This document shows, one piece after another, positions 13,088-34,523 of a stretch of DNA of 64,000 nt. Made by a program: the position numbers and the translations under genes. The stretch is from Cirrosporium novae-zelandiae. Its lineage: Eukaryota. Position 1 is the stretch's first letter, and each line of letters begins with the position of its first letter. The stretch is taken from contig JAPETS010000010.1 in assembly GCA_026023565.1 (NCBI GenBank), positions 558,001 through 622,000 of the forward strand, given 5' to 3'. The notes beneath the pieces were generated by a model. That model worked only from the letters and a program-made list of their open reading frames with translations. It did not search any database and had not been told where the DNA came from.

Positions 13088-13772
13088 TTTTGAGTCAGAC
13101 ATTTATTTAGGAGAAAACATAATCAGGCTCGAGCCTATGACACCACTGTGATTGCGCAGGAATTTGAGTAAAATCGTACCTAGAATTAATTATTCTCATG
13201 TTTTTTTAAAAAAAAAAAGTAGAGGAAGACATTGCCACACAAGAAACGAGATAACACCCCGAGGCCACGAATGGGCTACAAGATCAATGTACTTAAATTT
13301 CAAAGGCTCTAGGCAAACGCCTGGCCGTTTTTTATTTCGAAAATTCTATAACAGATAAGACCATCTATATGTTATGACGCCAGGAGCTCTCTCACTAGTT
13401 ATAATATTAGTTGAAAAAAGTCCAACATGTGTTATCTTTTTGATTCATTCGTAATGCGGAGTATCCTCAGAGTAGCAACTGCTTCAGAATAAGCGTCACA
13501 ACAAGGAAAAAAATGCATCATGAACTTTGAAAATGCCCATATATTTGTCCTGTTCCATCCTTCCATAATGTCATTAGTCATCCTGGTTCATCCCACCAGT
13601 CTCCACGCTATGCCCATTAACACCGAAAATATGCAAGCATCGGACGGCGCGATGCCTTCATTGATACAAAACCGTCATTCTATCATTACCTCTCCAGATC
13701 TGTCATCTAGGGACACTGTTCCAGCGATGGTCCAGTGCTCATCACCTTCATTCTAAAAACTCGGATAACAAT

Positions 13773-14297
13773 TCATGCCATGATCCCGACCTGCAAGCCG
13801 GAGGCTTGAGCAGCCATCCGTTCAAATAGTGCGCCTGTCTCAATAGGGTAGGCGAGTACGATTTTCTTAGCCCAATCTAGCCTGCGTTGAACCTCAGCAG
13901 CTTGGACTCTAGAGCGTTGACTTTGGCTAGCAAGCTGGCCTATCCGTGCATCGGTGACATCTCGACGTTTGAGTTCATCGGTGACAATTTTGTGGAAGAT
14001 TGGGTTCTCTAATACGTCTTAACAAGGTGAAAACTGTAGGGGCTATAGGGTGCACAAACCTGTGATCAGCCTCCAAGTAGGATCGTTATTAGCATCCTTA
14101 GATGGTCGTAAGGATGAAACATGATCCTGAGGAGGATTGACCTCCTCGTCCTCCAAGATGGTTTGAAGACGTTGAGGAAGAAGGCAAGATCGCCTTCTTG
14201 GGCTTCGATTTGCACTTCGACGAGGTCGTCGAGGTGGATCATCAAAAGTGGCCGGTAGGTTGGCAGGGTTAAATGCGGTAACGTGGTTGTCATACAT
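13773..14297 (-). CDS. Hypothetical protein, 2-exon model
   Basis: 51-nt intron 14009-14059 (GTTTGT...TTAG) joins ...WRLIT to an open exon ENPIFHKIVTDELKRR...GIMA*. No recognised domain. Confidence 0.5.
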
Positions 14298-17136
14298 GGT
14301 GATGGCTGAAGCGTACAGTGACAGATTACGAGATGGGGACAGGTTATATATAATGTAACAAGGCTGTGCTGATGAGATTGCAATGGTGTTGCCTTGGCAC
14401 AGTCACGCTAAGCAAAGCAGAAGAGATAGAGGCGAGACGGAATAGGAGGTAGATGGAGTCAAGCAGTGATCGGTTACTTGAGTGATGAGAGATGAGAGAG
14501 ATGTTGGATGAATTGACAAACAGACAGATAGATAGCTCAGGTAAATAATTGAATGCGGCGGTGATGATGAATGGAAGAAGTTCGGGTCGACAGACAGGAT
14601 TTGCGATAAGTCTTATATCTCCTCCATGTTTCTCCGCAGGCTAAGGTGGGTGAGTTGTGGAGCATATAAAAGTGACTCCACAATAAAGCTCATACTAACC
14701 ACACAGACACCGGAATGACCTGAGTTTCATGGGCAGGGACCGTCTGGGGTCAAAAAGAGTAAGTATCTTACCTTACTGTAAATGCTTCATTATTGCGCAA
14801 AAAAAATCAGCAGACAAGGACCAGACAAGACCAGACGAGACCAGCCAGAGCCAGACAGAGGCTGGCAGAACTATGCAGGTGTGGACATTCACGGGCATTC
14901 CAGAAGAATGGCAGCCAATGATCAGAAATCTCAGGACTCGTAGGTTGCTGTAAGTCTTGTAAGGTCTTGTAAAGCCACAAGGGATTTGTCGATAAATGGT
15001 TGATCAATATAGGAATTGAATTACCAAGGCTCGCTCAGGACCTTGTTTGGAAAAGGTGGGAAAGGTGTAGGAAAGGTGTGTGGAAAGGAAAGGATAGGGA
15101 GATTCGGTGGGAAAGGTTTGATAGGTCTCAAGGACTCTGCCGATGTCAGACTAGAATCAATGGGGGGATTTTTGCTCTTGTCTAACGGACGTTACCGACA
15201 TTGGCCATAGCCCATCCTGCCCATATCCCTCATACTTGCCCGTCCCCCTTGTCCACCACCATTTCTGCCCATTTCTGCCCACTTGGCTCACACAAGTCGT
15301 TAACCGGTTAACCGCTTTCTCATCCTCATCTTCCCTCTCTCTAACCTATCAGGCATGTCATCCCGAAAGCCTTGTCCTTTCATTGCCACCAAGTTACAAT
15401 GATATTCATATACTCCTCCAACAACATGTCACCCTTTTGAGACCAGTGAGATTGGGAGCAGTTTGTGTACAGTAAAAGTAACCCAAGTTCTTCAAGTAAC
15501 CAAGTAACCCAAGTAACCCAATCCTCCCTGTTTAAGCATTTTGTGGAACATTATTCCCTCTTTAGGTTTAATATCATTGCTCCCTAGGCATCATAGTAGA
15601 TTTATCCCTTTTTTTTGTTTGATTTTGATTTCATGATTTCATTTTAATTTTGCCTCTGTTGATACAGTCGTCTTTACCTTGAGGCCTGTCATGAAGGAAA
15701 GCAGTTTAGTTGGACAATTTAACTTCAATTGACTCGGTTCCCCCTTCCCGTTACTAAACAAGGTCAAGCTAGTCGGAATTAGTCGCGTCCTCCATTCTCT
15801 TCATGCCCTTCCCACCCTTGACCACTTGATGTCTTGGAGCCAATTAGCAAATCCATATTAGAACCACACCCCAATACATCCTATTCACACCCACTACACC
15901 TTCCATCATCCTCTATATGTACACTCCATAAATCGCTGCCCTCCGCCTCCCGCTTTTACGGCCTACCGCTTTAAAAATTCTCCGCTTTTCCTTTCCATAC
16001 CACCAAATTCACCTACCAACGTAATATCACTGCGAGCAATAACCATCTTGGTGGAACACTTAGTTCCTTGTTCAAAACCAAAAAGGTAAGAAGAAAAAAA
16101 AGAAAGAGAGAAAAAAAGAAAGAAAAAAAACTTTGCAGCTTGAGCAACTGAACGATCCTTACGTGCCGCATCTGCAAGCAAAATCCTTGTCGGTAGATCT
16201 CGATCTTCTCAAACTGTTGAACTAAAAAAGACTTCCGTTGAACTACTTCCATGAACTTGATATAACTTTTTTCTATTAAAACAATACAATTAGACTTTTA
16301 TTCTCAAAGGTAGACTTTCGCAGTCCCGGCATTGTTGCCCCAAGGTCCGAGAGCCATCGGATACTTCGGGTTGATAGAAACGAGGTTTTTTATCGTCGAA
16401 TATATTACTATTATTTCATTATTACTCAATAGTGAACTATAGCTTGTCCCGCTCAGCGAGTACGTTGTTCGTCCACGACTATTTCTTGGCATCCTTGTAC
16501 CTGAGGTCTCGACTAATGGAGACTCTGTCGATCGTTATGACCATCTTCTTTGGTCGTCGCCATGTCATAGGCGGGGCCGTCTGAGAAGGCCCGGAGGGGC
16601 AAAAACGCTTTGTTTGGCATAACCACCACACCTTGGACCATTATCTACTTTAGATCTTGGTACTGGCTAAAGTCATTGCAAATTACCGGCCAATCTGAAT
16701 TATATCCCCAGTGGTCCAAGCAACAACGAACAGACCAAGACCAGGTCCAGGTCAAATCGTCGTGTACTCGACGTCAGGTCGACCGTATATTGCTGTGTCT
16801 ACATCTATCTTGGTATTCATTCATGGAATTTTAACGTGGCAAAATGATCATTTCTTGCGTCATTGATATATATCTTTTTGAAATTTTTGTCACTTTTGTA
16901 AAGTCATGTCTGAGCAACACATCATCCTTCAGCGCTTGCATAGAATGAATGGAGAGCAGCTGTAAGCTCGTGACGGGTATCATATCTCTAGTAGATAACA
17001 CAGGCCCATCCCTATGGGCCCTCCATATACCTTAACTCCTGTATCATCAATTCTCATAGTACCGGTAAGCCCACCGCCCACTTAAGATTCCATCCGTGGA
17101 GTTGTTTGATTTATCCGTGCCTAGTCCCCCATAACC

Positions 17137-20100
17137 TTAAACCACCTCATCTTTTTCACTTGAACTCCAGTAACCCTGATCCTCATTGATATCCTCTGAT
17201 TGCATTCCCATAACCTTTCTGCATATATCGAGGCAATTGTTCACAGAATTGACAATTGCGGTTTTGGAGAGGCCCCTGTCCCTTCCTTCTTCACCCCCAA
17301 TCCAAGTTCTCAAAAACGCCGCCACCTGTTCTACTTCACCCTGGGTTTGCTTAAAGATGACGTCATCGGCGGCACACAAACGGATGCATCGATATGCAGC
17401 AGCAAAGCTAAGCAAGCCAATATGAGATTCGTCGAGAACCTGTTTAAGAGACTTGAGGATTTTGGAAACATCTAATGTTGTCGAAGCACATCTAGTCTGT
17501 GATTGTTCAATCAAGGAAATCGTCATGGCACAACGCATGGCAATGCGAACATCAGGCGTGAAGAGACCATCACTGCCAGCCGAAACCGAGACCATGGACT
17601 TGGAATCAGTGAGTGATGACGCATCATCTACTTCTCGGAGCGCATTTGCAATAACCTTGACAGATGCATTAATATTTTCTTGCCGATCTTTGGTTAGGAA
17701 AACAGCTTTAGCAGCTAGTGCTCGTAGTTGGGCTCGAGATTCGCGAGGCGCGGTTTCTACAGCCATGTTGATATCATTAGATAGAAGCTCATCGCTGCAA
17801 ATAGACTGTCTCGACTGTTCAATTGAGGTCACAAGAGCGTTGCGAAGAGTGAGGCTCGACCACCAGGCTGCAAGCACGTCAAGGGGAGAACGTATCGCTA
17901 GGTCTTCCACAACACTATCCAGACCGGCATCACCAAAATGAGTGTTTTCAGTAGTAGGACGGCCGGAAGCAAGATTGGATGCGCGTTGAATGATCGAATC
18001 GACAAGCACCTCATTACATTCCTGTTGCAAAAGCGAACACAGGAAGTCTGGTAGAAGGCTGACTGATGCTGCATCCATTGTGGACACTTCATTAGAGGTG
18101 TGGACAAATTCTCTAGCTTGGTTCCAGTATTGGGTAGCACGCCTTGAAGCAATAGACTGGATCGGAAGCATCTTGATTAGGGGGGATTTCTGGGCCGCAC
18201 GCGCAAGCACATGAATATGCAAGGCCTTGAGCATCAGCCTCGTTGGAGAGTCAGGAAGTGTGGCGGAAGCAAGGAAAGTCAATAGTAGTCGACTAAAGCA
18301 GATGTCGGCATCACCGCCTGCGAGCTGAGCATCGATAGCGATATCCCAAGCCTTGATTCGAGCAGCTTCATCCTCCTCAGTGAAGCCAGTCAGGAGCGAG
18401 TAACCACGCCAGCCGATTACGTTGCGTAAGCACAGTTTACACATTTTAACGGCGATAGCTGCAATTTCGAATATAAAGCTGTGGTTTGGAACCCAGACAG
18501 TTTGCTTAGAGGTAAGCCATGCCTCCCGACGGACATCCAAAGGAGATGCAAGAAACGAGTCAGCATCAGAAGAATCCATGTTCGCGATTTTGCCCTTCTT
18601 AGTTCCCGGCTTGGCATCAAAGAAAGAAGGCATAATCACATATACCAGAGCGCCAAGGACCAATACCATTTTGAACAAGAAAACAAGATCAAGCCAGTGA
18701 GAAAAAACAGGCATTCCCATAACCATGGAAACCTGGTTCATTTTTAGCGAACTTGAGAAATATCCGAAGAGGTGGATGGGAAAAGCAAAAAGCCCCCGAG
18801 CTCCGGGGTTATTGCCTGTCTGCTGTTGTTCATTGAAGCCTTCCATCATGGTGAGACCAGCCAAGGATGCCACCATCAATTTGCTCATGTAACCTCCGCC
18901 GCCATTGGCGTTTCCAGGGGCACCAGGTTGTTGTTGTCCAAATTGCTGCTCGTGTGTTTGAGGCTGAAGGGGTTGGCCTGGCATGGGTCCAACAGGTTTG
19001 CGACCCTTGGGCTTTTGAGATCTGTCGACCGGACGTGCTGCTTGGAGAGAATTGTAATCAAATGGAGCATTGGTTGTAGGGATCTGTCGAGCGCGATGGC
19101 AATTAGAGCATCGTGCATTTGCACCTGCTAGTTCAGCAGAAGCAAACCTTTGAAAGGCGATCAATTGTCGCTTGAGGGAGGCATTTTCCTCGTTAAGTTG
19201 TTCGCTCTTTGTCTCAAGTGACCTAATGTATTCTGTAGCCTTGGATAGAACTGTTGCTTTGTTTAATTTGCGAGCTGTGGTCAAATCGCCATCTTGTAAA
19301 TCGAAATCATCTTCCGCATTGCCCCCATTAGCAGAACTCATGGCACGTAGGCAAGGTACGCTATCACGTAGCTCTGTGATTTTAGCATTCAAATTTGTAC
19401 GATACCGTTTTTCGATCTCATTGTGCGTAGTCTTTCTGCTCATCTTCCGACGCTGATTTGGATTCGAAGAGTCCTCGATTTGATCTTCAGGAGTGGATTT
19501 TCTCTTCCGATCTGGGCCCAGCAGAGTAGGAGACGTGGGTGAATCCGCGTCTGTCTTCGTAACTGGAATCTCTTTACTCTCCGCCATTGATCCGTTTGAA
19601 CCAGCACTCGACTTGGGAGAGCCCGCTGGAGGGGATGGTGACTGCTGGCTGCTCGATGGTTGATCCCGATATCCAGAGACGGATTGAGACGTTGGGGCTG
19701 TAGAAGATGTGGCAGGTGCGTCATAGGGAGTATTGTTATTTTCACTATTACCCGAAACTGGGAAAGGATAATCTGCAGGGGTCGTAGTTTCGTTGTTGAT
19801 CCATAGCGGTGAAATGCTAGCTGGAGGATTTTGATACAAATATGGATTCATGCCTTGTTTACCAGTGAGCCTCTGGACGACCGCGGCAAGAAGGGGCAGA
19901 GACAAGGACGGGGGAAAATACCTTGAACGGCTGCTGGGGAATTAGTCCAGGCTCCAGGAAAATCCAGACCATAAGCAGAACCGTCTGCGGGTAGGAAATC
20001 TGGCGGACTTTGCTCTGTCTTTACGGCTGGAGATGAATCATTAGCATCCCAGGACAGGTAATCTGCCCAACCAGTCTCGGCGGGAGAATCTGTCAAGGCA

Positions 20101-20412
20101 GAGCGCGCGAAAGAGTCGCGCTGTGGTGCACTCGAGAATAGCGGGTGGTCACTATAAGTGTGGTTTGCAAAGTAAGGCGAGTCGCCTGAGTTCAGAGAGA
20201 CAGCGAAAGATTGGTTGGAGCCAGTTGTGAGGTCAGAAACAGGCGACAGGTCAAAGAGTGGGGATTTATCTGGCAGGGGATATGTTTCCTGTGTGGCGGT
20301 CAGCTAATGCCATTGTGTGCCTTCATCGATCAACACATACGCCGTGTGGTTTGACGATGGTAGAAGATGGTGCGGAGAAACGTTTTCGCTGCTTGGGGTT
20401 CTTCCACTCCAT
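17137..20412 (-). CDS. srbA: Sterol regulatory element-binding protein (SrbA/Sre1-like), 3 exons
   Basis: bHLH with the SREBP-diagnostic tyrosine (HNEIEKRYRTNLN...LNKATVLSKATEYI), TM1 MSKLMVASLAGL, lumenal RGL, TM2 and a long C-terminal domain (AWDIAIDAQLAGGD). Introns 20289-20340 (GTATGT..GCTGAC..CAG) and 19855-19921 (GTATTT..AAG) give an open frame from ATG 20412. Confidence 0.95.
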
Positions 20413-20420
20413 AATATTAA

Positions 20421-20451
20421 GTGAGGTGATGTGAGGGTGAGGTGATGTGAG
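20421..20451 (-). promoter_or_regulatory. Two tandem SRE-like decamers ATCACCTCAC
   Basis: GTGAGGTGAT at 20421 and 20437 on +, one mismatch from the canonical SRE ATCACCCCAC. Function is inferred. Confidence 0.35.
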
Positions 20452-20994
20452 CCGAAGCTCTTTTGTCAGTTGATGTGGAGAGAAGGAGATTAAAAGGCCT
20501 CTGATTGATTTTAGGTATTCTTGCAGTATGGGATGTCGTAGCTGACAACAGATGAGGGGACGTCTGATATACCGGACGAGGTCGTGTTGTAATAGGCAAA
20601 CGAGTGGATGACGAAGGTTGCCGTTGAGGTTACAGTATCAAATAGATAGTTTCAACAAAGTCGCAGTGTGGATTAAGGGCCTTGTGCGAAGAAGAGATTT
20701 TCCAAGTTTCTCTTTTTTTGTTTTCTTTTTTTCTCACTCTTTTTCTTTTTTTTCCTTGGGTAGGGAATCAATCTAATTGACAAGTTAATCTCTTTGTAAG
20801 TGAGCTTGAAAAACGAAAAGGGAAGTGCAGCGGAGGCAGCGGGCCTTTGTATGGAAAAGGGCTAAGGCCGAGTGGGTGAGGGACAATGCTAGAGCTAGGT
20901 TGTGGAAAATGGACTACTGAGGAGGGGAGGGGGGGGGGGGAGGGACTTACCAGAAAGTCAGGAAGGACAGGTGGGCAATGGACAATGGCAATGG

Positions 20995-21058
20995 TAGTGG
21001 CAGTGGCACTTGGTACTGGTACTGGTACTGGTACTGGGGCACTGGGCACTGGGCACTG
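20995..21058. repeat. Compound microsatellite (GGTACT)n/(GGGCACT)n
   Basis: Directly visible tandem units. Confidence 0.85.
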
Positions 21059-24000
21059 ACACTCACTGATACTGGCAATGGGCAATAATGGGCAATGGAG
21101 AAGGAGCCAAAGGAGCCAAGGGAAAACCAAATAAACCAAAGGGACACCAAGGGAAGTTAGTAGCCTTAGAAGAATGGAAGAATGCGAAGTGTAAACGGCA
21201 TACACCTAAAAATTTAAGCGAGTCGAAACGGGCGGCGACCAAGGGGAGAGAGAAGTAAGTTGACTTGGGAAAGTTCAAGGATCGATTATTTCGCCAATGC
21301 GCCCCATTATCGACCATTATCGACCATTAACTATCCACATCTACAAAATGATTATCCACTTACCCAAATTTGCCCTTGTCACTGCCTCGATTGGGTAATA
21401 TTCTTCTCAACTTTAACATCAAGAGTGTGTCCACAATTACACAGGACTTGGAATACACACAGTAATGCCTTCTTGGTCGCTTTTTTATTGCCACCAAATC
21501 TATACTCAGCTTTTTTTTTATCGGATGGCGGTGATGCATGACGGTCTTACAGCCTACAGCTTCCGACCCGGGAATAATTGATCCTGTGCTCAATATATAT
21601 TCTTCTTTGAATCTCTCCGAACCCCCTCCAAGGGTCTATTTTCCAGGTGCTTCCAAGTGCCTCCAAGTGCCTCCAAATGCCTCCAGATACCCTCTAAAGC
21701 TAAGTGTGTTGCCTCAAGTGTTGCATTCAAAGGCCGCCGCCCATTGCCGATGCTCCCTTCCTAGGACGTAGACAAAACGCGAACAGGCGCGAAGATCGGT
21801 CCAGGGCTTGCACGAGTTCCACATGGCTGGAGGGGGGGGGGGGATGTGAAGTTCTGCATATATCGGGGCCGCCTGGCTTGTTCGGATCCTAAGATGAAAA
21901 GAAGAAGAAAAAAGTCAAGGTCTTCCCGAGGGGTTTCGGCGGTCGCCTGGTGGAGAGTAAATCTGAATTACATATGCACCTCCCACAGCCAATCTTAGTG
22001 CCTGGCTTTCCCTTAAGCTTGTCTCGGCGTTCCTTTTAACCAATAATACTTTATCTTGGCCTGCATAACCCCCCCCGGTACCCCCCTCCCCCCCTCTCTC
22101 CCTTCCCTGTTGGCATTGATTGGCGTTGGTTCTTTTGTTTGGTTTTCGTTGGTCCTTGCACGGCTGAATAAGCGGGATAAACAAGACTAAAGATCGCCAA
22201 GGATCTGATCCAAAAGTCCCCAATGATAACTCTTTAACTTTCCTAATTAACATGGATAGCTAGTCGTTAGTCAAAGTATTCAAACGCCCAAACTCCAGCG
22301 AAATAATTGCCAAACACTGCTAATCTATGCCTCAGCCGCTGTAGATCGAACTTCAGTTCCAGCCTCCAGGGGCGTACCTCCTTGTCGGCTCTGACAACTT
22401 GTCTTCAGAATATGCGGCGGTACATAGCTTCCACCTTTTCATCTATTAAAGCCTCTTTGATGTTTACGCAATATATGCCGATTAGAAGTTAGGATGACTA
22501 AGTACTCCAGATTGATGAGAAATCCTTTTTGAACCCTGGAGGATGCATCGATGCAATCATTTATCTACCAATCCATCCAAAAAACCCCGCTTCATTGATC
22601 CAGGGTTCGTCAATCATCGTCGATCATCCTGCAGGCTTGCTTGCTGCTGTACGCCCAACCTCACTAGGACCCTGATCCGATGTCTTCCTTGACTCCTTCC
22701 TATCATCAAACTTATCATGTACGAAAAGGCACATACCTTTTCGATTTCCTACAAATAGTGGCCATGATGGCGGATCGATGCGATGATTGAAATTTTTTCT
22801 TTAGAAAGGGCAGCGATAATTAGTTAGTCAGTACTCTAAGACTGACATCGCTGGCATGGCCATTATTTTTCCTCGTTCCGAGGGCCAACGCCGGGTTCCC
22901 TTCGTCCTGGCAAATGCATCTAATAAAGTATAAATGCTTAGAATGTCGCTGACTCGCACACTCTTCTGCGGGTGCCTTTTGTTAAAAATCCGCCAGCCAG
23001 CTGTCAAATTTGGGGGTCCTGGGTCCTGGCTTGTTACGTTGTGAACCTTAACCCACTACTACGGTGAGTCTGGGTAAAAAAACAATTTTTCCATTATTGC
23101 AAAAAGCTAGTTAGTCTAATGAATAAGCGGAGATGATGGCGACCCCTTCTTGGTCCTAACCACTCTCTATAGGGCTACAATGATCATGTACATTTGTACA
23201 GTGTACACAGTAATGTCCAACTTTTCTATCTATAAGGCATTATTATGAATCCATGAATCCATGATCCGTCATGACTAGTCATGACCCAAGCTTCCTTGGA
23301 CCCTCTCATCACCATTTCTAGTGCCTTGTTTTGTTCCCCAGTTCCAGGTTCGTTCCAGGTTCCAGGGTCTTAAAATTCTCCAAAATCTTAACTCTTGTCT
23401 AAATAGGGAAAGCTACCATCGACAATAATACTCAAGTAAATAGGTTGCCTAATTTTCATTATTCTCCTTATTCAAACTTATACTCTACCATAGTTGAAAA
23501 AAAAGAAAAAAAAAAAGGTATCCATCACCATCGATATCAAAACAAACTCATCTGAGAAGATAAAAGAAAAATTTTCATTAAATCACAAGTAATCAACAAG
23601 AAAAAGGTACAAGACCATGACAAGGCCGATTCTTCCGACCTCCGAATCAAGCGACTGCACACCCCGCGGCGGGTTCCGATCTGTAACACTAGGGTTTAGT
23701 GCCTCGCACTGTGCGCCAAGGTGTCCTAGTTCTACTACTGATGCATCAAAATGATTCAGCGGTCACTGAATAACCGAATTACCAACTGAGGCTCACATCC
23801 ACTGTCACCACCACCAAGCAACGCCGCGCGATAATTATAGTTGGTATCAAACCACCACCGTAGCTTTTTCGCAAATCATGTCCGTCAACTGCCCTTCCAA
23901 ATGCCAACTCAAATATCTCAATTTGCATTAAGGCATATGTACGCAATGAAGAGGGTCTTCCTGCCTTACTCCTCAGGCTGTTCCAGAATACTTAGCCTAA

Positions 24001-25160
24001 GGCATGATGTGTCTTCCCTCCACAATTTCATGCATATAGGCTTGCTTGGTGAATAAAGACTCGTGGAATTATTTTTATTGGGCATCATAATCTCCATTAT
24101 TGCCAAGTCATGGACTTTCTAATCCTTCAATCTTAGATAATAGCCGGGTTAATGAGCTTCCCAAGCTAAACGCCCTAATCGTCATTTCTTCGATTGCGAT
24201 AAACGTCAAGCCGACACGCACTGACTAATAAGGTATTTTTCCAGAAGTCGCGTCGAACCTTTGTCGATCGTCTCGTATTGATACGCGTTTCTGGGCTTCC
24301 CGATTGCAACGATCGCAGTCATCTCTTGTCGACGGTTACAGATCAACGCATCCTTCAATGCGAGTGGTCGACATCGGGTTCTATCTTGGATCCTTTCATA
24401 TTGAGGGACCTACCTTATCAGATACGTGAATATTTCATAGGAAGCTATGCTTGCATTTGCATTGCAGTGGTTCCCACGTACCAGATATCAATTTGACACT
24501 TAACATTGATAATCCACCTGAGTGCAGTATCCGTAAGTCCGAGTCTATCTCATCATCGATCTCGGGTAACAAGCGTCTTCATTCGTCGATGCCCTTGCTC
24601 TCTAGTTCTCAGGGTGATGGAAAATAAAAGAATATTCTGCGCCCGTGGTAGGCTGTAGGCTTCGTCCAGGTGGATATCAAAAGCGAGATTTCCACCAAAG
24701 ACGGAAGCATGTGGCACGGGGCTAGCTTAATTGCGGTCGGAAACAAGCGGGCAATAAATGTCAATTGCTTTTCAAGTCGCCGATCTTTTTTCGCATTACA
24801 ATAGTTGGACAAATATGATGAACACTTCGTATCAATGGAGGTGTTGTCGAAGGTTCGAGGTGGGACAGAGCAAGGCATCAAGAAGCGAAGGCCTTTGGAG
24901 GCGCATTTCCCAATTTGGAAGTATAATAATATTGATACTGAACTTGGCCAAGATGATTTGCACATCGTTCAACGATAATGGAATACGACCAACTACACAG
25001 GGTAGATAGCTCAGCCATTCAGCCACCAATGAAAAAAGGAGCGCTTGTGTTGTGGGACAGTTGGAATTGTGGATGAATCATAATTTGTGGGTGGAGGCAA
25101 AGTTGGGTTTATAAGTTTCGGCCGATAACAAAACAAATGCATAAAATGCAAGAATAAAGT

Positions 25161-25209
25161 GGGGGGGGGGGGGGGAGGGGGGGGGGGGGGGGGGGAAGGG
25201 GATGGGGGG
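25161..25209 (+). repeat. Long poly-G tract
   Basis: About 35 nearly uninterrupted G followed by further G runs. Confidence 0.95.
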
Positions 25210-26025
25210 ATGCCGTAGATGCCAGGATGCCAGGGTGCCAAACATTTCAGGGCTGGGTAACCTTAGCTGTTAGTTCTCCCTGCAAATAACTGGGAGTCAT
25301 GTGGAGAGGTCAGCGAGTCAGCTAGTTCAGTCACTTTCCTAACGCCTTTTTTACCGGTTATGGCCGTATTTTTGAGCAAATATCTCTGTTCAAAACGAAA
25401 ACAAGCCGAAGTGTCAGGTCTCGACTTGAGGTTGTCATGGCATAAAAGATCAAAATCCATCGAAATCCACCAAAGTCTAAACAAAGTAGCTAATCTTCAA
25501 GTTAAAACATTTGAAAGTATGAAAAGGGAAGTCTTTTGACAGTTGATCTTGGCTTTTTGGTAGAATGGCCCCAAAAAACCCCTCAGCAAAATGTACTTCA
25601 AGCGAGAAAGCAGATGATGGCAACAAAATGATTGAGCGGAGTTTCCCGTTATTCTCATTTTCCCGTACCGCAATTCATGACCGCAATTGTTCGAGAAATC
25701 TCGGCCTTTGTTGTTGCTCAATTCTTATTTGCAGAGCTGCTCTCATTCTCTCTCCCTCTCTTTCCCTCTCTCCTCTTCTAACCTTACCTTACTTAGTCAT
25801 ACCTAAAATTTTCCAGGCGCCTCTCAACAACCCCCAAACAACCCCCCCCACCCCCCACCCCCCAAAGCAGAGCAAAACTAACGATTGATGGCCAAGATCA
25901 AAGATGGGCACTTAGGCACACCTACAGTGACCTGCCACTTTAGTACCTCTGTACTGACCCCTTTTAGATGCTTTGACTGTTTCGCCCTCTGCGTCTAAAA
26001 CAGAAGGCACTTTGATTGAAGGATC

Positions 26026-26094
26026 ATGATCGTGCTTGGCCTTTGTTCCATCTTGATTATTATCGTCCTTATTCCGTGGTCCCCAATGGAATGA
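26026..26094 (+). other. Candidate uORF encoding a 22-aa hydrophobic peptide upstream of SCAP
   Basis: ATG 26026 to TGA 26094 reads MIVLGLCSILIIIVLIPWSPME. It ends 19 nt before the SCAP ATG. Confidence 0.4.
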
Positions 26095-26113
26095 CATCTG
26101 CGTAGTTGTTGCA

Positions 26114-29100
26114 ATGATCTGGTATCTGACTTATCCATGGACAAGGTAAGCGTTCTAGCCGCTATAACCACAGTTGAGGGATCTGCAAGAGCCGGGAAGG
26201 GGAAGATGTAACCATAACCACCACTGTGATCTCTGACTGATCGTGATCGTGTCGCTTGTAGGTCTGTCAATCCTCCGCATCTCAGAGAAGACCATCCACT
26301 TCGCGTTGGCCTGTCCAGATACGGAGTCCTTGTTGCGCAGCGCCCCATTACCTTCATTCTTCTCTCCCTAGCACTCGGTTTTGCGACCTGGTATCCATTA
26401 CCATTTTTGTATTCTCAAGAGGCCTCGTCTCGTGCACTGAGCTTGCCAAGTCATGTCTGGACATCAACAAGACCTCTATTACCAGGTGAGGCTGCCCTTC
26501 CAGACGTTGAGATCAGACAGGCATGGATCTACGGCAGTTACATGAGAGCATTGGAACCAAAGCTGTTGCAAGATGGCCTTACCATCCAGAATGAGCTGCT
26601 TAATATGGCATCCAAGAACTTACCCGTTGCGTCTGTATCTGAAGAATATTTATTCATGGCAACTGCAGCTGGCGAGGGTCAAGTACAGGGAGGTTTGATG
26701 GCCCTTGAAGGACCAAACCCTTGTTTCCATTCTCCTTTCTTCTATTGGAACAACTCCATGTCACAAGTCATAGTCGATAAGACTCCAGTTGAGACGATCA
26801 ATGAACGTTGCTCACTTATCTCACCATTCAATATGACGTTGCGGCCTTCGTCCGTGTTTGCTGGTAAAAGATTCCAAAATGAAAAACTAGTAGCAGCAGA
26901 TGCTCTCGTTATTAGCCTATTCTCCAAACCCGGGTCAGACGATGGAAAGACTTGGGATGAAAATTCGCGTCGAATCTCAAATAGTGATAGATGGGACATG
27001 TACCATGCCCAGGATGACCATTCGACCAAGCTTTATGAATTTCGGTTTCGGTCTGTGAGTTCTAAATACGACACACTCCTAGTCCTAGCATACCTTACAA
27101 TCTTATTGAGGGTTTTGTATAGCCTGCAGAAACTCCGAGGAGTTAGGAGTAGATTTGGTTTGGTCCTGGCTATCATGATACAGGTCAGCCGTTGCAGATA
27201 TCCCTTGGGAGGATTACTGGTAGTACTTTCTAACGAGTGTTCTAGAACTGCTTCTCGGTACTTTCAACCTTTGCTGTCGCTGCAATCATGAATATGAATA
27301 TGTCTCGAATTCCAATGGAGGCATTTGCTTTTGTAATCGCATTTGTCGGTTTTGAAAACTCGTAAGGATATCCTATTTATATCATGCTCAAGTCTACTTT
27401 CTGACGTATGGAAACGATAATTTCAGTCTTCGTCTTGTTGATGGTGTTCTCGAAACTTATCCGGAAAGTTCAGTGACTTCTAGGATTGGTGATGCCTTGG
27501 GTTCCTTTGGTCTCCTCATATTTTCACCCATCGAAAAGATCCTGATCCTTTGGTTGCTCAATCATATTGTTGCTCCTGTGGTAGCGCCGATATGTCCTTT
27601 CGTAGCTATCGCACTTGTATTTGATGTCTTCTATTTTCTTACTTTTTTCATTGCCATACTCAGTGCCGATATGCAAAGACTAGAATTAAATGATTTCCTC
27701 GAACGGTCCGTCCTACGGCGGTCACCTTGCAGAGAGAGCCCAAAAATACAAAACCCTCGAGAACCAGTCAAAATTAAGCGGAGTCGCTCGTGGAAGTCCT
27801 TCGATCGTGAAACTTTGGGAAATTTCCGTTTTGCCTTGACGCCAATACTCATTCTCTCCATAATCATACTGGATTCTCAAAGTGAGAGCAAAGCTTTGCC
27901 TCGCATCATGTCCAGGCTTCTTAACAATATCAATCCTGTCAATGCAATAAATACCTATGATTTCTGGTCTTTCTTGACCCCGCTTGTTCGCCCTTCGAGG
28001 AATCCAGTGGCCTGGCTATACATGCAAGACCGTGAATCGGCAAGAGAGATAATTCGCATGTCAAAGCCTGGTGCAACAAGTCTCGTAGCGACAATATATG
28101 AGCCAATAGTTTTTGTCACTCGCTTTGCAAATAGGGAGACAATTATCAGTTCGCGGACTAGGCTACCTGTCAGTTCAACTTTTGATGTCTTCTTTTCGCA
28201 TAGCTGGCTCTTCTTCCCATCTTTGGCATTTGTGACCATAGCTATCGGTACGACCCTGCATTTTCTGCTTCGAGATGCGCTTAGGTTTGATATGCAGACT
28301 CCTGAGAATTCCAAGCCAAAGATATCCGTAAAGGCTCTTAGCAATAGGCATGGTTTGGATGTTTTCAATATGGCTGCAGCAACGACGGGTATATTGGTAT
28401 CTGTTGGGTTTGACCGTCAGGTCTGTGTTTGGGATTTGAAGGAGCAGTCCCGTCAGCATTCCGTCGAACGTGGAAAAATAGAAGATACCATTTCAGAGCA
28501 CATTTCATGGCCAGTAACGGGGCTTGCGGTTGATGAGTCTGCGAAATGGTTGGCAGTATGTTCTTCTCGTGATATGTTGAGTGTCTGGAGCCTGCGCGAC
28601 GGACAATTCAAGATGTCTACCACGGTTGGGCAACCGCTAGACCAGTTCACCACTCTCATCTATGTAAAAGATGATCTTCGCCGCAATACTTCTGTGTTGC
28701 TCGTACGATCCAATGGCCTGATGTCAGATGTTGATATCGAGAACTCACATGTAACCCAACACCGCATTTGCCCATCTCCAGTATCGTCATGCCTAGGTGT
28801 TTTCGCCAATGGATCAGAAAAGAATAATTTTCGTATACTGGTTCTTGGAAGGGATGGAAAGCTTCACGTGATTGTTAAACACAGTGATGGCTGGACGTCT
28901 GAACCTACCTTTATTTCCAGATGGCCTACAAAAGCAGCAGTTGCTACTACCATATCAGCTGTTCCTGGCTTTAGTATGATACAGTTGCTATTGAGTCCGC
29001 TGTCAAATACCGCCTGCTTAGTAAATACGCAAGTTCGTAAGTTACCCTTATCTAAAAATCCACATGCGAGCAAGATGAGCTAACCCGTATTTGGATAGAT

Positions 29101-29796
29101 TCTGTGATCCATACCTTCGATTTGAGAGCTTTCCAGCCCCGCAGCGTTCGGGTACTCCATACACGTCGACAGAATTGTCCAATTTGCGGATCTTTGGCCG
29201 TCGCGTCGTTTTCTATAGCATATTGCCACAGAGAGACGGGAGATTTAATAATGCATACATTTAGTCAGGAGCATGAGAACGTGGATAGAACCTTTCTCAT
29301 ATGTCTTCGCGCAATCAAAACACCAGATGAAAGAGACTGCACAAGTCTTCAAACGGCAACGGAAGATGTCAACGTTGTCCGTAATGCACCAGTTTGGGAG
29401 AAAGTGGGTCCTCATAGCGTTGCTGGAATTCGTAAATTGCCGGCTATCCAGCCGGCCTCTGCAAAATCCGGTCCAAGATTGCGAATGAAAAGTGCCAAGG
29501 TTCTCAAGACGGGTAAGGGTCCAGTAGACGACGATTGGGAGGCCTTCACTCTATCTACAAAAGGAGAATTAAGCCATTGCCCAGTGCCAGCCGATGATCA
29601 CGGTAGCGACCTCATAGTATCTAGAGTTGGCCCTGCTCGGAAGGTAGGGAGAAGGTCCATTGCTGTTGCAATGGGGAATTCCATCAAGTTGATATCTTCG
29701 GGAAACGAACAGTTTGATAACGTTAATGAGAACGACGAGGACGAACTAGGTGGCATACCATCGAGACGCAAGCACAGGGATCTCGGGTCTGGGTGA
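26114..29796 (+). CDS. scp1: SREBP cleavage-activating protein (SCAP/Scp1): sterol-sensing domain plus WD40 region, 5 exons
   Basis: Start MIWYLTYPW. Introns 26146-26261, 27184-27245, 27362-27426 and 29037-29098 join three ORF-track pieces. SSD segments GFENSLRLVDGVL and LVFDVFYFLTFFIAILSADMQRLELNDFL align by eye with mammalian GLENVLVL and SIDIRRMELADL. WD repeat LVSVGFDRQVCVWD. Confidence 0.9.
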
Positions 29797-32700
29797 AATC
29801 CGGGACAAGTAGCCAAAATTCGCCTGAGGACCATTGATATGTCGCTTGAAATACGATATTTGCATGTTATAACTTCCTGATACCAAGCTAGCACTGTGCT
29901 CTGTCGGCCCTTCATCTTAAACCATTTCCCAGCCAGTGAGCGACTGTCTTGTCATATCCATATTCTGCGGCCAATAGTCCGGATCCACCAGCGCCTCGAC
30001 TCGGCACATATGGAGGCACAAATGAAACACGGGGTTTGCTCTCTCTCTAACCAACTACCAAAAGAGTAATGCCGCTTCATTCTAGATGCTATGCCATCTC
30101 GATTGAATTCTCCATGTCCAAATGGTCGCCGACTGGGTGCTCATCGGTCGAAAAATTGTTAAAAGAACCTAAAATCTTTTGTCCCCAGCTTCAGGGCCAA
30201 TTCTGTACATATTTATTAGCACACACGACCCAATGTATACTTACCAGACCCAGGACACAGTGACGCTATGGATTGTTCGTTGCTTGAAGCGAAGACACGT
30301 TGACTTCCGAGTTCCTCCGGGTAAGGAAGCCTTCCTTATTGTACACTGTTTGTTTATAGGCACTTGGAACATGTGGGTGGGAAATGACTGTTGTTTCTTC
30401 TAGTTTGTCTGTCCGTCGACCACGATAGCAAGTTTTAGATAGAGAAATGGATGATGTTGATATAATGTCAGATCAATATCTGACTCTCCAGTTCAAAGGA
30501 GATGATGAACAAAGCCGAGCTGTCCCGTAGCGAAAAAAGATGGATCAAACTCCAAAGTAATAAATTTAGGTAGAAGCAGGATGATATGATCAAGCTGGCA
30601 CGCAGAGCGCAGATGCCCGGTCAAAATATCAAGTCTTTGGTCTGGGGATAATGGCGTGGTATGACCCTTCGGTTTGTATCTCGCCCACGACCACGCGGGC
30701 GGGATGATATGGCATGTTCTAATAGACAAAATAAAAAGCCTCACCACCATCCCCAGTCTTCCAGGTCTTCAAGTCTCCAGATGTCTACGACAGGCAACCA
30801 GTGAGAATTTAGGAGTCGTGATTGCCCACCCCGGTATGGTCAAGACTACTGATGGAAAGTTAAGTTGGGACACTGGGAAAAGCCACTACCTTAAAAAGCG
30901 TGGAGTCATACGATAGAACCGTCAGGCTGAAGAGAAGGTGCGACTTGGCGCCTTCGCCCAGGCCTGCCCCCTGGGGAAACCAATTGAGCTTGTCAGCACC
31001 CAATAATCTACTCTTTTTCTACCAAAGGAATTCATGGGAGTCGTGGGATTAAGCCCCGAGCCTGTATCACACAACCGCATAACCTTTTTGTATGTTATGT
31101 ATGTTTGTGCATGTACTATACGATTGATTACTCTCGCTCTTGGTTGAAAGCTCCTAAAGCAAGGTACACCAAAGCTCTCTGCGTGCCTTGCCTGTACTTT
31201 TTCTCCACCCACACACCTCAAACCAAGCTCTAGAAGAAGCAGTTCTTTCAAAGCTCGTAATTAATTAGCTGACTTGAAACTTGGTGACTAAAAGCAGCAA
31301 TGAGAACGACGACAACGACGACGACGAAGACGTTCGTTTCATTATTCCATCTCTCTTCATCTGCCCATCTCTCCATATCTGGAAACTAGGGCGGAAAGTT
31401 ATATGGTAGACTCGCATGGGTCTCACGCCATATCTCACGTTAATGCTAAAAGACATTGACGTTTAATGCTGGGGACCAACCACGAGCCACCAACCACGGT
31501 GTCACGATATCTAACCTTACTAACCTATAAGTAGTTTAGCCTTGGCCCGGGTTTACCTTTCTTCCCTTTCTTTCCCTTCCCCTCCCTTCTCATCCAACCA
31601 ACAAAACAAACGTCCTGGGGCCGAAGCTTCGCACTGACAACTGGTGGGTTATATTTAGTGGAAAACTCAGACATGCAGCTGTCAAGGTTGGGCTGAAGTT
31701 ACACAAAGTCTGATGCTGCCGCCGTGGTGGAATAAGCTGATGGCTTTTTTGTCGTTCTAGCCTTGGAGAAGGTTGGCCTGCACTCACATTATTCCCTTTC
31801 CCGCTACTGTGGTAATTATTCATTCTCTTCTCGTTAACCATCTTATTACTAAACATCTCCCCCAAACTTTTAAAATCTCGTTTACATACTCTGCAAGCCT
31901 TCAAAGTTTAAACCATAGCAGTTGAGAATATAACCAGCACGATGGGATGGTCTCGTCAAGATAGAACAATGAATTTCAGCTTCTAGTCTTCAATCCAGCT
32001 CAAAGTATGTTCATGGATTCGAAACAAAGTTAGTTTAAGAAGCAGAGAGCCCATGGTGGCTCACTACTCGAGTAGTCTGACCAGGCCACATTTTACAACT
32101 ATTTATTACCTCTGTTGTGAATTACCGTTGGTTTGTGTCATGTTCGATGACGACTCTCAGAATTGCGCGTCTAGCTACAATCACCAACCACCCCTCTACG
32201 GTTAGTGTGATAATTCTTTTTCTTTCACGCACAACTCTATACTCTACTTCACCATTATTGGCACATCATCAGTACTGTCCCTCGTACCCAATTGATATTA
32301 AGCATGATCCTTGTCCCGATAGTACCAAGATACGAGCGCCAGGGCACAGAGGGTTGAGCGGAATATCGGGATGATGCCGAGGTGAAAAGCCTCCAGCCTG
32401 CAGCTTTCAAATAAACTCGAGGTGGTATATATGCCATTGTCTTTCTATTCTTTTTTAGGGTTTTTTGGAAGAGTATACACTCCCATGTGTATAAAGTAGA
32501 CAACCATTGGACTTATAAACCAATGGCACAAAGAAAACATTAGAAGATGGAAAACATGTACTCGTGATCAAACACGAAGAAGTCCGGATGTGGTCAGAAG
32601 AAAGTCTCGAATTGAAGTTCGATGTTCCGTCTCCACAAAGATAACTTAAGCTAGAAATTCTGACCCATAGGCTAAAGAATTAAGTTAAACTGGGTAATTG

Positions 32701-32981
32701 GGTATCTTCACAGCCAAACTCCATATGAACTCCACGTCAACCTGTTCATCAATGCCTGTTCGGTCGCTTCAGCCATCGGATTGCCCTTTTCTCAACTACC
32801 GCGCGCCCTAAATTTCCAAGCAACATACTGCCCTCGTGGCTTCGCCTAACCAATCCATGCTGGCCCTACCCCAAGAGCACCTTCGACCATCTCGTCATGC
32901 ATATCCCATTAAATCATACCTTTATCGTACAGTTCGTGCAGAATATATACATAGGAAATACTTCAAGCGCCGTGCTTTGCG

Positions 32982-33759
32982 CTATACGATGTCCGCGCCC
33001 GCATGAGGGTAAAATTGCACACTAGCGGTATCTTCTTTCATAAACTTAACCTTGCAGAGCGGGCAGTCGACTTGCTGCCGGAGGTACCAATCGTCGATGC
33101 AGTGCTTGTGGAAGACGTGATTACAGCGTAAGGCACGGATTTGTTGATTTGGGAGGATCGGATCGAGGCAGATGACGCTAGAGTAGGCACACGAAGGTTA
33201 ACACCCCCCTCTTCTACTAGGAGATGATTGATACGGGAAGAGAGAAATAAAAATAAACATAAGCCGTACCAGACGAGTTGCTGGGTCAAGAATTCAGGAA
33301 TCTGTTCCTGCATTCTCTTCGTGTTGTTGGCTTTCCATTTCTCGAGCGTCTGTGCGGGGATGGCTTCATTAAGAAGTTTCATTCGGTTGACGTTTCGGTG
33401 GGATATGGCTCGGCGGTCACGTTTTCTCAGGAGGCAACCTCTGTAGGAAGCGTTAGGAATTCTTGCTTTGGGAAATGCAGAGCAGACCCGTGTTGTCATT
33501 CCTTGCTGCTCTTTTAATCACATCAACTGGTAAGGAGATTGTTCCGACCGATAAAATGAGGGGTGGGGAGAAATAATTACATTGCTATAGCTAAGACCAG
33601 GAGCATTGCGATTAAGCCAGCGATTGTGGACGAGATCACCAAACTCCCTGAGGCCGTGCTATGTTTTGACGAGTTACTTTCGTGGAATGTTTCCGTTGCT
33701 GATGCCGCTCCCGTCTCGCTGGCCGTGACCGAGGCGGCAAGGGTGGTGGTGGCACTCAT
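32982..33759 (-). CDS. Single-pass membrane RING-H2 E3 ubiquitin ligase, about 181 aa, 3 exons
   Basis: Exons 33759-33581, 33440-33270 and 33177-32982. Ser/Thr-rich N-terminus, TM helix, basic RKRDRR, then CVICLDPILPNQQIRALRCNHVFHKHCIDDWYLRQQVDCPLC (C3H2C3). Both introns have branch points (CTAAC, TTAAC). Confidence 0.88.
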
Positions 33760-34418
33760 GATTACAAGAGTGAATCAAACTTAGACGGCAAGATCGGATA
33801 TTCTGAGTGCTTGGGATGCCTCCAAAAGTGTCGAGAGCAATGCAATTCAACTATTTCAAACATAAGCCGACCATTGGATGAAAATGGCCCTAAGAGGAAG
33901 TAAAATTGGCTTTGAACTCAATTGCTTACATTTTGTCAGATATAATTGTTGCTGGATAGGAAATCAACGTGTACAGTGATTTCTGCCAAAGGTCAAAAAC
34001 AAAAACAGCAGTTTCATTTCCCAAGACAACAGCGGTCACAGTGAAGTTTAAAAAGTAGGATAATGATGGGGAGATTTATTGAAAAGGAAGAATAATGCGT
34101 CGGTTAACAGGGAAAAACGTAGCTATGCTTGTGACAACAAACCATGATCCAGTGAAAGGCAGGCCAAACCTGAAATGGGCAAATGAGGGGAAGTCGAGCC
34201 CACTCATTTTTTTCAGCTATCCCGGACCATGGCAGAAGATGGAGGAGAAGGCCGGCAACATGGTTATAGGATAGGCGGCCCGGTCATGAATTTCACTGCT
34301 GAGTAGATAGCCACAAGAACTGAACCGATGACTTGGTCACGCCATGAAGGATTTGGGAGTGAACAGATTAACCAAGAAGATGAAGAAATTGGGCTTGAGT
34401 TTAGAAGGAGAGAATTTC

Positions 34419-34523
34419 GGGGGAGGCTTCGGGGGAGGCTTCGGGGGAGGCTTTGGGGGCTTTGGGGGCTTTGGGGGCTTTGGGGGGAGGGAGAGGGGGG
34501 GAGGTTTCGTGGGGTGGGGTGGG
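34419..34523 (+). repeat. G-rich compound minisatellite (GGGGGAGGCTTY)x3 plus (GGGGGCTTT)x3
   Basis: Directly visible. It produces spurious Gly/Phe and Pro/Lys ORFs. Confidence 0.9.

What the first reader, a model, noticed from the sequence alone, without database searches (positions are those of the whole stretch)
17137..29796. SREBP and its escort SCAP arranged head-to-head: candidate clustered sterol/hypoxia-sensing locus
Seen: a tyrosine-bHLH SREBP (ATG 20412, minus) and an SSD+WD40 SCAP (ATG 26114, plus) point away from each other across 5.7 kb with no intact gene I can recognise between them. Established: these proteins form the ER sterol-sensing complex (Sre1-Scp1 in S. pombe and Cryptococcus), and Aspergillus has SrbA but no SCAP. 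I know of no description of the two genes as neighbours. Inference: a shared control region and/or co-inheritance of sensor and transcription factor, which may bear on the patchy retention of SCAP in Pezizomycotina.
Basis: partly seen in the sequence, partly recalled or inferred. Interest (0 to 1): 0.85.

Follow-up and report, generated by a model that had tools for sequence, protein, structure and literature searches.

The report
Neighbouring SREBP and SCAP genes
A little-studied fungus has the genes for its sterol-sensing transcription factor (SREBP) and that factor's escort protein (SCAP) back to back, but other fungi examined do not share this layout, so it looks like a one-off rearrangement and not a regulatory unit.

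Summary
An intact SREBP gene (minus strand, ATG 20412, stop 17137; bHLH with the SREBP tyrosine, plus DUF2014) and an intact SCAP gene (plus strand, ATG 26114, stop 29796; sterol-sensing domain plus Scp1-like WD40) point away from each other across 5,701 bp. A source names the SCAP protein as a Cirrosporium novae-zelandiae MAG protein.

I found no gene in the spacer: no Pfam hit in 60 of its 76 open segments, no tRNA, no Rfam match.

The interpretation (shared control region, co-inherited pair) is not supported:
- In 6 of 6 other Pezizomycotina species where both genes could be placed, they lie on different contigs.
- In Clonostachys rosea the gene numbers are far apart, and scap expression does not depend on sre1.
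- 0 of 80 environmental SREBP loci carry a SCAP gene in the flanks held.
- 5.7 kb is long for a shared fungal promoter.
- SRE-like sites occur only beside the SREBP start.

One caveat: the join between the two genes crosses a G15-A-G19 tract that the laid contigs do not bridge. The pair is probably a lineage-specific juxtaposition. Low interest.

The parts
17137..19853 (-). SREBP exon 3 (includes the stop at 17137-17139): bHLH, membrane segments and DUF2014
   Evidence: Pfam HLH 1.5e-13 and DUF2014 6.9e-151. One colinear tblastn segment with 5 homologues. Matches PDB 5grs_E, the Sre1 C-terminal domain, at 1.8e-4, and Hms1 and SREBP-1a bHLH chains.
19922..20288 (-). SREBP exon 2 (variable N-terminal region)
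   Evidence: GT..AG introns keep the frame open. The segment GWADYLSWD resembles the consensus WxEWMxWD of alignment A2. The exon borders are inferred from sequence only.
20341..20412 (-). SREBP exon 1 with ATG at 20412
   Evidence: A 52-nt GTATGT...CTGAC...CAG intron follows. The start codon is inferred, not confirmed by RNA or homologues.
20420..20446 (-). Tandem pair of SRE-like decamers (ATCACCTCAC, twice), 9-34 nt upstream of the SREBP ATG
   Evidence: Each copy differs by one base from the published SrbA motif. The relaxed pattern was chosen after seeing the sequence. With the published motifs there is no enrichment in the window.
20413..26113 (.). 5,701-bp spacer with no recognisable gene
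   Evidence: No similarity to the flanks of 80 other SREBP loci. No relic of the TPR gene that lies upstream of SCAP in two other fungi.
25161..25195 (+). G15-A-G19 tract inside the spacer; the laid contigs break here
   Evidence: Record 1 ends at 25149 and record 3 starts at 25211.
26114..26145 (+). SCAP exon 1 (ATG 26114)
   Evidence: Exon model reproduces P0121 exactly. The N-terminus aligns from residue 1 with homologues.
26262..27183 (+). SCAP exon 2: first membrane segment, luminal loop 1, start of the sterol-sensing domain
   Evidence: tblastn with distant SCAPs.
27246..27361 (+). SCAP exon 3: middle of the sterol-sensing domain
27427..29036 (+). SCAP exon 4: rest of the sterol-sensing domain, later membrane segments, most of the WD40 domain
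   Evidence: Pfam Sterol-sensing. PDB 4yhc_A, the S. pombe Scp1 WD40 domain, at 1.1e-8 over residues 654-1099.
29099..29796 (+). SCAP exon 5: end of the WD40 domain and the stop codon

Best explanation
These are the single-copy-type orthologues of the fungal sterol/hypoxia regulator SREBP (Sre1/SrbA/SAH-2 type) and its escort SCAP (Scp1/SCP-1 type).

By homology (inferred), SREBP sits in the ER membrane. The SCAP WD40 domain holds SREBP's C-terminal DUF2014 domain. The SCAP sterol-sensing domain reports sterol supply. When sterol is low the pair leaves the ER, and the bHLH part is cut free to switch on oxygen-dependent ergosterol genes.

Their head-to-head position in this genome is most likely a lineage-specific product of gene-order scrambling. 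Each gene keeps its own promoter, and the 5.7-kb spacer is ordinary gene-poor DNA, not a shared control region.
For: Shown:
- Domain content and an intact reading frame for both genes.
- All 9 PDB sequence matches of the SCAP protein are SCAP chains, including the S. pombe Scp1 WD40 domain. The SREBP matches the S. pombe Sre1 C-terminal domain.
- 156 proteins match the SCAP at E<=1e-30, many full length and colinear. Sources name several of them SCAP.
- Y288 and D423 of the sterol-sensing domain are invariant in 25 sequences.

Adjacency is not conserved. SREBP and SCAP lie on different contigs in 6 of 6 species:
- Pycnora praestabilis: M1827_004146 / M1827_003284
- Glutinoglossum americanum: FGG08_000762 / FGG08_000905 and FGG08_005491
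- Sarea resinae: M1819_005798 / M1819_000176
- Blumeria graminis f. sp. triticale: BgTH12-07287 / BgTH12-04332
- Macrophomina phaseolina: B0J12DRAFT_257764 / B0J12DRAFT_622214
- Paraphoma chrysanthemicola

Further points:
- C. rosea sre1 is CRV2T00000933 and scap is CRV2T00000306, and scap expression is unchanged in the sre1 deletant (preprint passages).
- 0 of 80 environmental SREBP loci have a SCAP match in the DNA held. 26 of them hold 7 kb or more upstream, and the positive control worked.
- In Macrophomina and Candelina submexicana a TPR gene sits directly upstream of SCAP. That gene is absent from the window, which fits a rearrangement here.
- Other ORF-poor stretches of 4-9 kb occur in the window, for example 13085-17136 and 29797-38710.
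- Published SRE motifs are not enriched, and none lies near SCAP.
Against: - No genome of a close relative could be examined. The best SREBP hit is 43% identical and the best SCAP hit 34-35%, so conservation within Xylobotryomycetes is untested.
- For two given genes among about 10,000, chance adjacency is rare (about 2 in 10,000; my estimate). The coincidence is not trivial for this one genome.
- No expression data exist, so co-regulation is not excluded.
- Some of the 80 environmental loci are near-duplicates, and some may come from fungi without SCAP, so the count overstates independent tests.
- The contig comparison for Paraphoma rests on the species name only; the same assembly was not verified.
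Confidence: 0.72

Rival explanations
1. The pair is a selected two-gene module. In this lineage SREBP and SCAP were brought together and are kept together because they share regulatory DNA or chromatin in the spacer, or because linkage keeps co-adapted alleles together.
For: - The products are known partners in other fungi (S. pombe structures 4yhc and 5grs matched; yeast two-hybrid in C. rosea).
- The orientation is divergent, with no recognisable gene between.
- Chance adjacency of two named genes is rare (my estimate).
- An SRE-like tandem lies at the SREBP end of the spacer.
Against: - Adjacency is absent in 6 of 6 species, in C. rosea and in 0 of 80 loci.
- The 5.7-kb spacing is long for a shared fungal promoter (inference).
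- No SRE-like site lies near SCAP.
- scap is independent of sre1 in C. rosea.
- Nothing in the spacer is conserved with other loci.
Confidence: 0.1
2. The adjacency is an assembly artefact. Two unlinked contigs were joined through the G-rich tract at 25161-25195.
For: This is a metagenome-assembled genome according to the source name. The only run that holds the stretch gives two contigs that stop on either side of the tract, and none bridges it.
Against: - Both contig ends run into G on the same strand, which is what a real G tract gives and not what two read-end poly-G artefacts would give (inference).
- Other G or C runs of 12-15 nt occur elsewhere in the window. One contig runs on across both G12 runs, at 20929 and 21832.
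- The two contigs have nearly equal depth, 347 and 356. That is only weak support, since any two contigs of one genome would show it.
Confidence: 0.08
3. The two genes are not immediate neighbours. An unrecognised small, intron-rich or non-coding gene lies in the spacer. This can hold together with the best explanation.
For: - 5.7 kb is enough room for a gene.
- A codon-usage scan gave one high window at 25933-26112 on the minus strand (16.6, against medians of 4.4-8.8 for real exons). It covers a 61-aa ATG ORF that starts 17 nt from the SCAP ATG.
- Codon bias is weak in this genome, so the scan has little power.
Against: - No Pfam hit in the 60 segments sent, of 76.
- No Rfam or tRNA match.
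- The two longest ORFs lying wholly inside the spacer are not in the protein collection.
- No similarity to 80 related loci.
- Equally high scan windows occur in other ORF-poor stretches.
Confidence: 0.2

Closest known systems
S. pombe Sre1-Scp1 (structures 4YHC, 5GRS/5GPD) and N. crassa SAH-2/SCP-1
   Same: Same two proteins with the same domain orders: bHLH-Tyr, membrane segments and DUF2014 in one; N-terminal membrane segment, loop, sterol-sensing domain and WD40 in the other. The window's proteins match the S. pombe chains directly. N. crassa scp-1 (NCU03675) is needed for growth in hypoxia and for ergosterol gene expression (PMC5395666, passages read).
   Different: In those fungi the genes are not described as neighbours. 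I saw no statement either way in the passages read. The sah-2 locus number is not given in the main text, and the S. pombe positions are only recalled. Sequence identity to any known SCAP is low, at most about 35%.
A. fumigatus SrbA pathway (SCAP-less)
   Same: SrbA-type SREBP with DUF2014. SrbA binds SRE sites in its own promoter (PMC4223079, passages read). The window has an SRE-like tandem just upstream of its SREBP ATG.
   Different: Eurotiomycetes have lost Scap (PMC3894159), whereas this fungus keeps an intact one. The window's sites differ by one base from the SrbA consensus, at position 7.
Clonostachys rosea SRE1/SCAP
   Same: A Pezizomycotina species with an SRE1 of 999 aa and a SCAP of 1,127 aa with the same domains. 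SRE1 binds SCAP in yeast two-hybrid (preprint 10.1101/2024.02.26.582079, passages read).
   Different: The gene numbers are 627 apart, and scap expression is reported independent of sre1.
Divergent gene pairs with a bidirectional promoter
   Same: Head-to-head orientation of functionally linked genes.
   Different: The spacing is 5.7 kb. There is no conservation of the arrangement and no shared motif. Co-expression could not be tested.

Membership tests
Fungal SREBP (Sre1/SrbA type) | bHLH DNA-binding domain | tested here: met
   PF00010 at 1.5e-13. Matches PDB Hms1, SREBP-1a and Tye7 bHLH chains.
Fungal SREBP (Sre1/SrbA type) | Tyrosine in the basic region, where other bHLH proteins have arginine | tested here: met
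   HNEIEKRYR at residue 290 of the model. This Y is invariant in 28 aligned sequences (Y150). The defining role of the tyrosine is stated in PMC3894159 and PMC5395666.
Fungal SREBP (Sre1/SrbA type) | Two membrane segments between the bHLH and the C-terminal domain | tested here: inconclusive
   A simple hydropathy scan finds one strong segment (536-554). The first segment falls below my threshold, but it carries the conserved motif K..M...LAG that is invariant in alignment A2. No dedicated topology predictor was run.
Fungal SREBP (Sre1/SrbA type) | C-terminal DUF2014 (SCAP-binding) domain | tested here: met
   PF09427 at 6.9e-151, covering profile positions 4-453 of 454. Matches 5grs_E, the Sre1 C-terminal domain, at 1.8e-4.
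Fungal SREBP (Sre1/SrbA type) | Regulated cleavage and activation of sterol or hypoxia genes | not testable with these tools
   Needs experiments. No RNA holder was listed.
SCAP (Scp1) | Sterol-sensing domain of the SCAP type | tested here: met
   PF12349 at 1.3e-25, covering profile positions 2-144 of 153. The best PDB matches are human or hamster SCAP, 7e-15 to 2e-12. Y288 and D423 are invariant in 25 sequences.
SCAP (Scp1) | C-terminal WD40 domain of the Scp1 type | tested here: met
   4yhc_A (S. pombe Scp1 WD40) at 1.1e-8, with residues 654-1099 aligned to 18-467 of the chain. The generic Pfam WD40 score is below its cut-off.
SCAP (Scp1) | Full-length colinear orthologues named SCAP | tested here: met
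   750 proteins at E<=0.001 and 156 at E<=1e-30. Many listed hits are full length, for example 1-1111 of the query against 1-1109 of the hit. Sources name several of them SCAP. No gene tree was built.
SCAP (Scp1) | Several membrane segments (eight in mammalian SCAP, recalled) | tested here: inconclusive
   The hydropathy scan finds 7 segments above threshold. It is a crude method.
SCAP (Scp1) | Physical binding to SREBP and sterol-dependent transport | not tested
   No complex prediction was run. Binding is inferred from homology to 5GRS.
Co-regulated divergent pair (bidirectional promoter) | Short shared intergenic region | tested here: not met
   5,701 bp between the ATGs.
Co-regulated divergent pair (bidirectional promoter) | Arrangement conserved in related genomes | tested here: not met
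   The genes are apart in 6 of 6 species and in C. rosea. 0 of 80 loci carry SCAP. No member of the same class could be tested.
Co-regulated divergent pair (bidirectional promoter) | Correlated expression | not testable with these tools
   No RNA run is listed for this organism.

The most novel reading that the evidence does not exclude
In Xylobotryomycetes the sterol sensor (SCAP) and its client transcription factor (SREBP) have been captured into one divergent locus. That locus is kept by selection and co-regulated through the long spacer, for instance by SREBP feedback from the SRE-like tandem or by a shared chromatin domain. It would be the first clustered SREBP-SCAP module in any eukaryote.
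Probability: 0.08. Interest if true: 0.5.

Novelty: new member of a known kind. Interest (0 to 1): 0.2.

Why it matters
If the pairing were selected, it would give a natural handle on how fungi balance the amounts of SCAP and SREBP, and a compact locus for studying hypoxia and azole responses. As it stands, the value is modest. It shows that an isolated class of Pezizomycotina keeps a complete, intact SREBP-SCAP pair. That fits the view that SCAP loss is specific to Eurotiomycetes and not scattered across the group. It also records a gene-order curiosity that I did not find in the literature searched.

Tried and rejected
- Whole-genome search of the window's own assembly: none is held.
- RNA evidence: no RNA holder is listed, so expression of the spacer and co-expression could not be examined.
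- Laid contigs: no contig covers 25150-25210. This is not evidence for or against the join.
- Locus-tag numbering of the window's own neighbours, to count annotated genes between the pair: accessions and names of the window's own proteins are withheld. I did not pursue this.
- The SREBP protein itself did not appear in the protein collection. The best hit was 43% identical, and only lengths of 497-1582 aa were searched, so I cannot say whether the public record annotates it.
- Word-index searches for SCAP found few relatives (2 hits, 22). The full HMMER scan was needed.
- Codon-usage scan of the spacer: weak discrimination in this genome, with real exons at only 0.06-0.15 bits per codon. Not decisive.
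- Search for a relic of the TPR gene that precedes SCAP in Macrophomina and Candelina: nothing below E=0.05 even against the spacer alone.
- Synteny of the rest of the window with 80 SREBP loci: only a generic kinase-domain match.
- Earlier notes of this scan: nothing relevant.
- A gene tree for orthology, a structure prediction and a complex prediction were not run. Domain architecture, PDB matches and full-length colinearity seemed sufficient, and a pass would not change the verdict on adjacency.
- Supplementary files of the papers (Figure S5 of PMC3894159 on Scap evolution; Supplementary tables 1 and 3 of the C. rosea preprint) were not opened. They may list SCAP and SREBP gene identifiers that would extend the adjacency table.
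Full report
**What is there**

The window is fungal DNA with spliceosomal introns. The database protein that matches the plus-strand gene letter for letter is named by its source as a hypothetical protein of a Cirrosporium novae-zelandiae MAG, on a contig of 824,297 nt. That species is placed in Xylobotryomycetes, Pezizomycotina.

On the minus strand, exons 20412-20341, 20288-19922 and 19853-17137 give an open CDS of 1,051 codons with GT..AG introns.
- The large exon carries Pfam HLH (1.5e-13) and DUF2014 (6.9e-151, nearly the full profile).
- The basic region reads HNEIEKRYR, with the tyrosine that marks SREBPs. That tyrosine is invariant in an alignment of 28 sequences.
- Five homologues align to 19620/19509-17146 as one unbroken tblastn segment, so the gene is not broken.
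- PDB sequence matches are the bHLH domains of Hms1, SREBP-1a and Tye7, and the C-terminal domain of S. pombe Sre1 (5grs_E, 1.8e-4).

On the plus strand, exons 26114-26145, 26262-27183, 27246-27361, 27427-29036 and 29099-29796 reproduce the 1,125-aa protein P0121 exactly.
- Pfam finds the SCAP-type sterol-sensing domain (1.3e-25) and weak WD40 signals.
- All 9 PDB matches are SCAP chains. The sterol-sensing domain matches mammalian SCAP (7e-15), and residues 654-1099 match the S. pombe Scp1 WD40 domain (4yhc_A, 1.1e-8).
- A full HMMER scan finds 750 relatives at E<=0.001 and 156 at E<=1e-30. Many are full length and colinear, at about 30-35% identity.
- Sources name several of them SCAP.

**The spacer**

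The ATGs are 5,701 bp apart (20413-26113).
- The longest ATG ORFs overlapping the scanned region 20300-26200 are 107-120 aa, with odd composition.
- I sent 60 of the 76 stop-to-stop segments of 45 aa or more, dropping mostly the shortest. None hits Pfam at E<=0.05.
- There is no Rfam match at E<=0.1 and no tRNA.
- Repeats are limited to G- or C-rich tracts.
- The two longest ORFs lying wholly inside the spacer are not in the protein collection, while four other ORFs of the window are.
- A codon-usage scan has little power here, since real exons score only 0.06-0.15 bits per codon. Its one high window (25933-26112, minus strand) is matched by similar peaks in other ORF-poor stretches.

So I cannot recognise a gene there. 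A small or non-coding one is not excluded.

Long ORF-poor stretches are not special to this spacer. 13085-17136 and 29797-38710 look similar.

**Is the adjacency real?**

The only public run that holds the stretch may be the source of the assembly. Its contigs cover 16500-25149 and 25211-30500, and none bridges the G15-A-G19 tract at 25161-25195.

That gap is no evidence either way. It does mean the link between the two genes rests on the window's own assembly.

Three points make a real G tract the likelier reading:
- Both contig ends run into G on the same strand.
- Other G or C runs of 12-15 nt occur elsewhere in the window.
- One contig runs on across both G12 runs, at 20929 and 21832.

I give the artefact reading about 8%.

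**Is it conserved?**

No close relative is available. The best SREBP hit is 43% identical and the best SCAP hit 34-35%. I compared source names, locus tags and contig sizes of SREBP hits with those of SCAP hits. The two genes lie on different contigs in 6 of 6 species where both could be placed:

| Species | SREBP (contig, nt) | SCAP (contig, nt) |
|---|---|---|
| Pycnora praestabilis | M1827_004146 (314,912) | M1827_003284 (359,923) |
| Glutinoglossum americanum | FGG08_000762 (244,772) | FGG08_000905 (228,184); second SCAP-like FGG08_005491 (77,831) |
| Sarea resinae | M1819_005798 (147,802) | M1819_000176 (950,568) |
| Blumeria graminis f. sp. triticale | BgTH12-07287 (10.9 Mb) | BgTH12-04332 (12.3 Mb) |
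| Macrophomina phaseolina | B0J12DRAFT_257764 (431,719) | B0J12DRAFT_622214 (1,493,028) |
| Paraphoma chrysanthemicola | 1.26 Mb | 2.20 Mb (same assembly not verified) |

In Clonostachys rosea the gene numbers are CRV2T00000933 and CRV2T00000306 (preprint passages).

A scan of metagenome contigs with an SREBP alignment gave 80 loci.
- 26 hold 7 kb or more upstream of the match, and 23 hold 9 kb or more on each side.
- tblastn with 29 SCAP proteins found SCAP in 0 of the 80.
- The same queries find the window's SCAP at 5e-121 to 6e-48.
- Some loci are near-duplicates, and some may come from SCAP-less fungi, so these are fewer than 80 independent tests.

Nothing in the spacer or the flanks resembles the flanks of those loci.

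In Macrophomina and Candelina submexicana a TPR gene sits directly upstream of SCAP, and some gene models fuse the two. That gene is absent from the window, and no relic is detectable in the spacer. This fits a rearrangement upstream of SCAP in this lineage.

**Shared control?**

The published motifs are the SrbA site RTCABSCCACY and the human SRE TCACNCCAC (PMC4223079, passages read). They are not enriched in the window: 15 matches against 15.9 expected at one mismatch or fewer, and 2 against 1.66.

The only spacer hits are two one-mismatch copies, ATCACCTCAC, in a short tandem at 20420-20446, 9-34 nt upstream of the SREBP ATG.
- They might serve SREBP autoregulation, as described for SrbA.
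- They lie very close to the ATG.
- My relaxed pattern was chosen after seeing them.
- None lies near SCAP.

In C. rosea, scap mRNA is reported unchanged when sre1 is deleted.

**Mechanism**

The protein-level mechanism is inferred from homology:
- an ER-bound SREBP held through its DUF2014 domain by the SCAP WD40 domain;
- sterol sensing by the sterol-sensing domain;
- exit from the ER and cleavage when sterol or oxygen is low;
- activation of ergosterol genes.

This is what is described for S. pombe, N. crassa (scp-1 is needed in hypoxia) and C. rosea (SRE1-SCAP two-hybrid).

The gene arrangement is best read as a lineage-specific juxtaposition with independent promoters (confidence 0.72). 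The rivals are a selected module (0.10), an assembly chimera (0.08), and an unseen gene in between (0.2, compatible with the main reading).

**Known or new?**

Five full-text searches found no paper describing SREBP and SCAP as neighbours. Subscription journals and supplements are not covered.

Maguire 2014 (PMC3894159, passages read) states that Scap is missing from Eurotiomycetes within Pezizomycotina. My searches found full-length SCAP relatives in species of many other Pezizomycotina genera. An intact SCAP here is therefore expected, not a patchy survival.

Both genes are new members of known families. The arrangement is an undescribed but probably incidental feature. Interest 0.2.

Noticed in passing
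window 20420-20446 (-): A tandem of two SRE-like decamers (ATCACCTCAC) lies 9-34 nt upstream of the SREBP start codon. Each is one base off the published SrbA motif. It could be an autoregulatory site, or it could lie within the 5' UTR.
   Followed up: partly
window 25161-25195; also 20929-20940, 21832-21843, 3916-3930, 42781-42794: Long G or C homopolymer tracts (12-19 nt) are scattered through non-coding DNA. The longest (G15-A-G19) is where the laid contigs of the holding run break.
   Followed up: partly
proteins P0302, P0303, P0274 (Macrophomina phaseolina, Candelina submexicana): A TPR-protein gene sits directly upstream of SCAP on the same strand in these two fungi, and some gene models fuse it to SCAP (1,579 and 1,485 aa). 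This looks like an old synteny. It is absent from the window.
   Followed up: partly
proteins P0127 and P0143 (Glutinoglossum americanum): This species has two SCAP-like proteins on different contigs (FGG08_000905, 1,010 aa; FGG08_005491, 1,173 aa). This is a possible duplication.
   Followed up: no
window 17137-20412 (-): The SREBP protein of this window did not appear in the protein collection, although the neighbouring SCAP and four other window proteins did. The best hit was 43% identical, and only lengths of 497-1582 aa were searched. The public record may lack this gene or model it differently.
   Followed up: no
window 29797-38710: A stretch of nearly 9 kb downstream of SCAP has only short ORFs without family matches (112-204 aa). 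Two ATG ORFs tested from it are not in the protein collection. Gene density in this part of the contig is low.
   Followed up: no
window 25912-26097 (-): A 61-aa ATG ORF starting 17 nt from the SCAP start codon on the opposite strand gives the highest codon-usage score in the spacer. It has no family match and is probably chance.
   Followed up: partly
window 48562-48632 (+): A tRNA-His (GTG) gene, the only tRNA in the window.
   Followed up: no
window 44329-48021 (+): A 1,231-aa single-exon ORF that is annotated in the public record has no Pfam match at E<=0.001.
   Followed up: no
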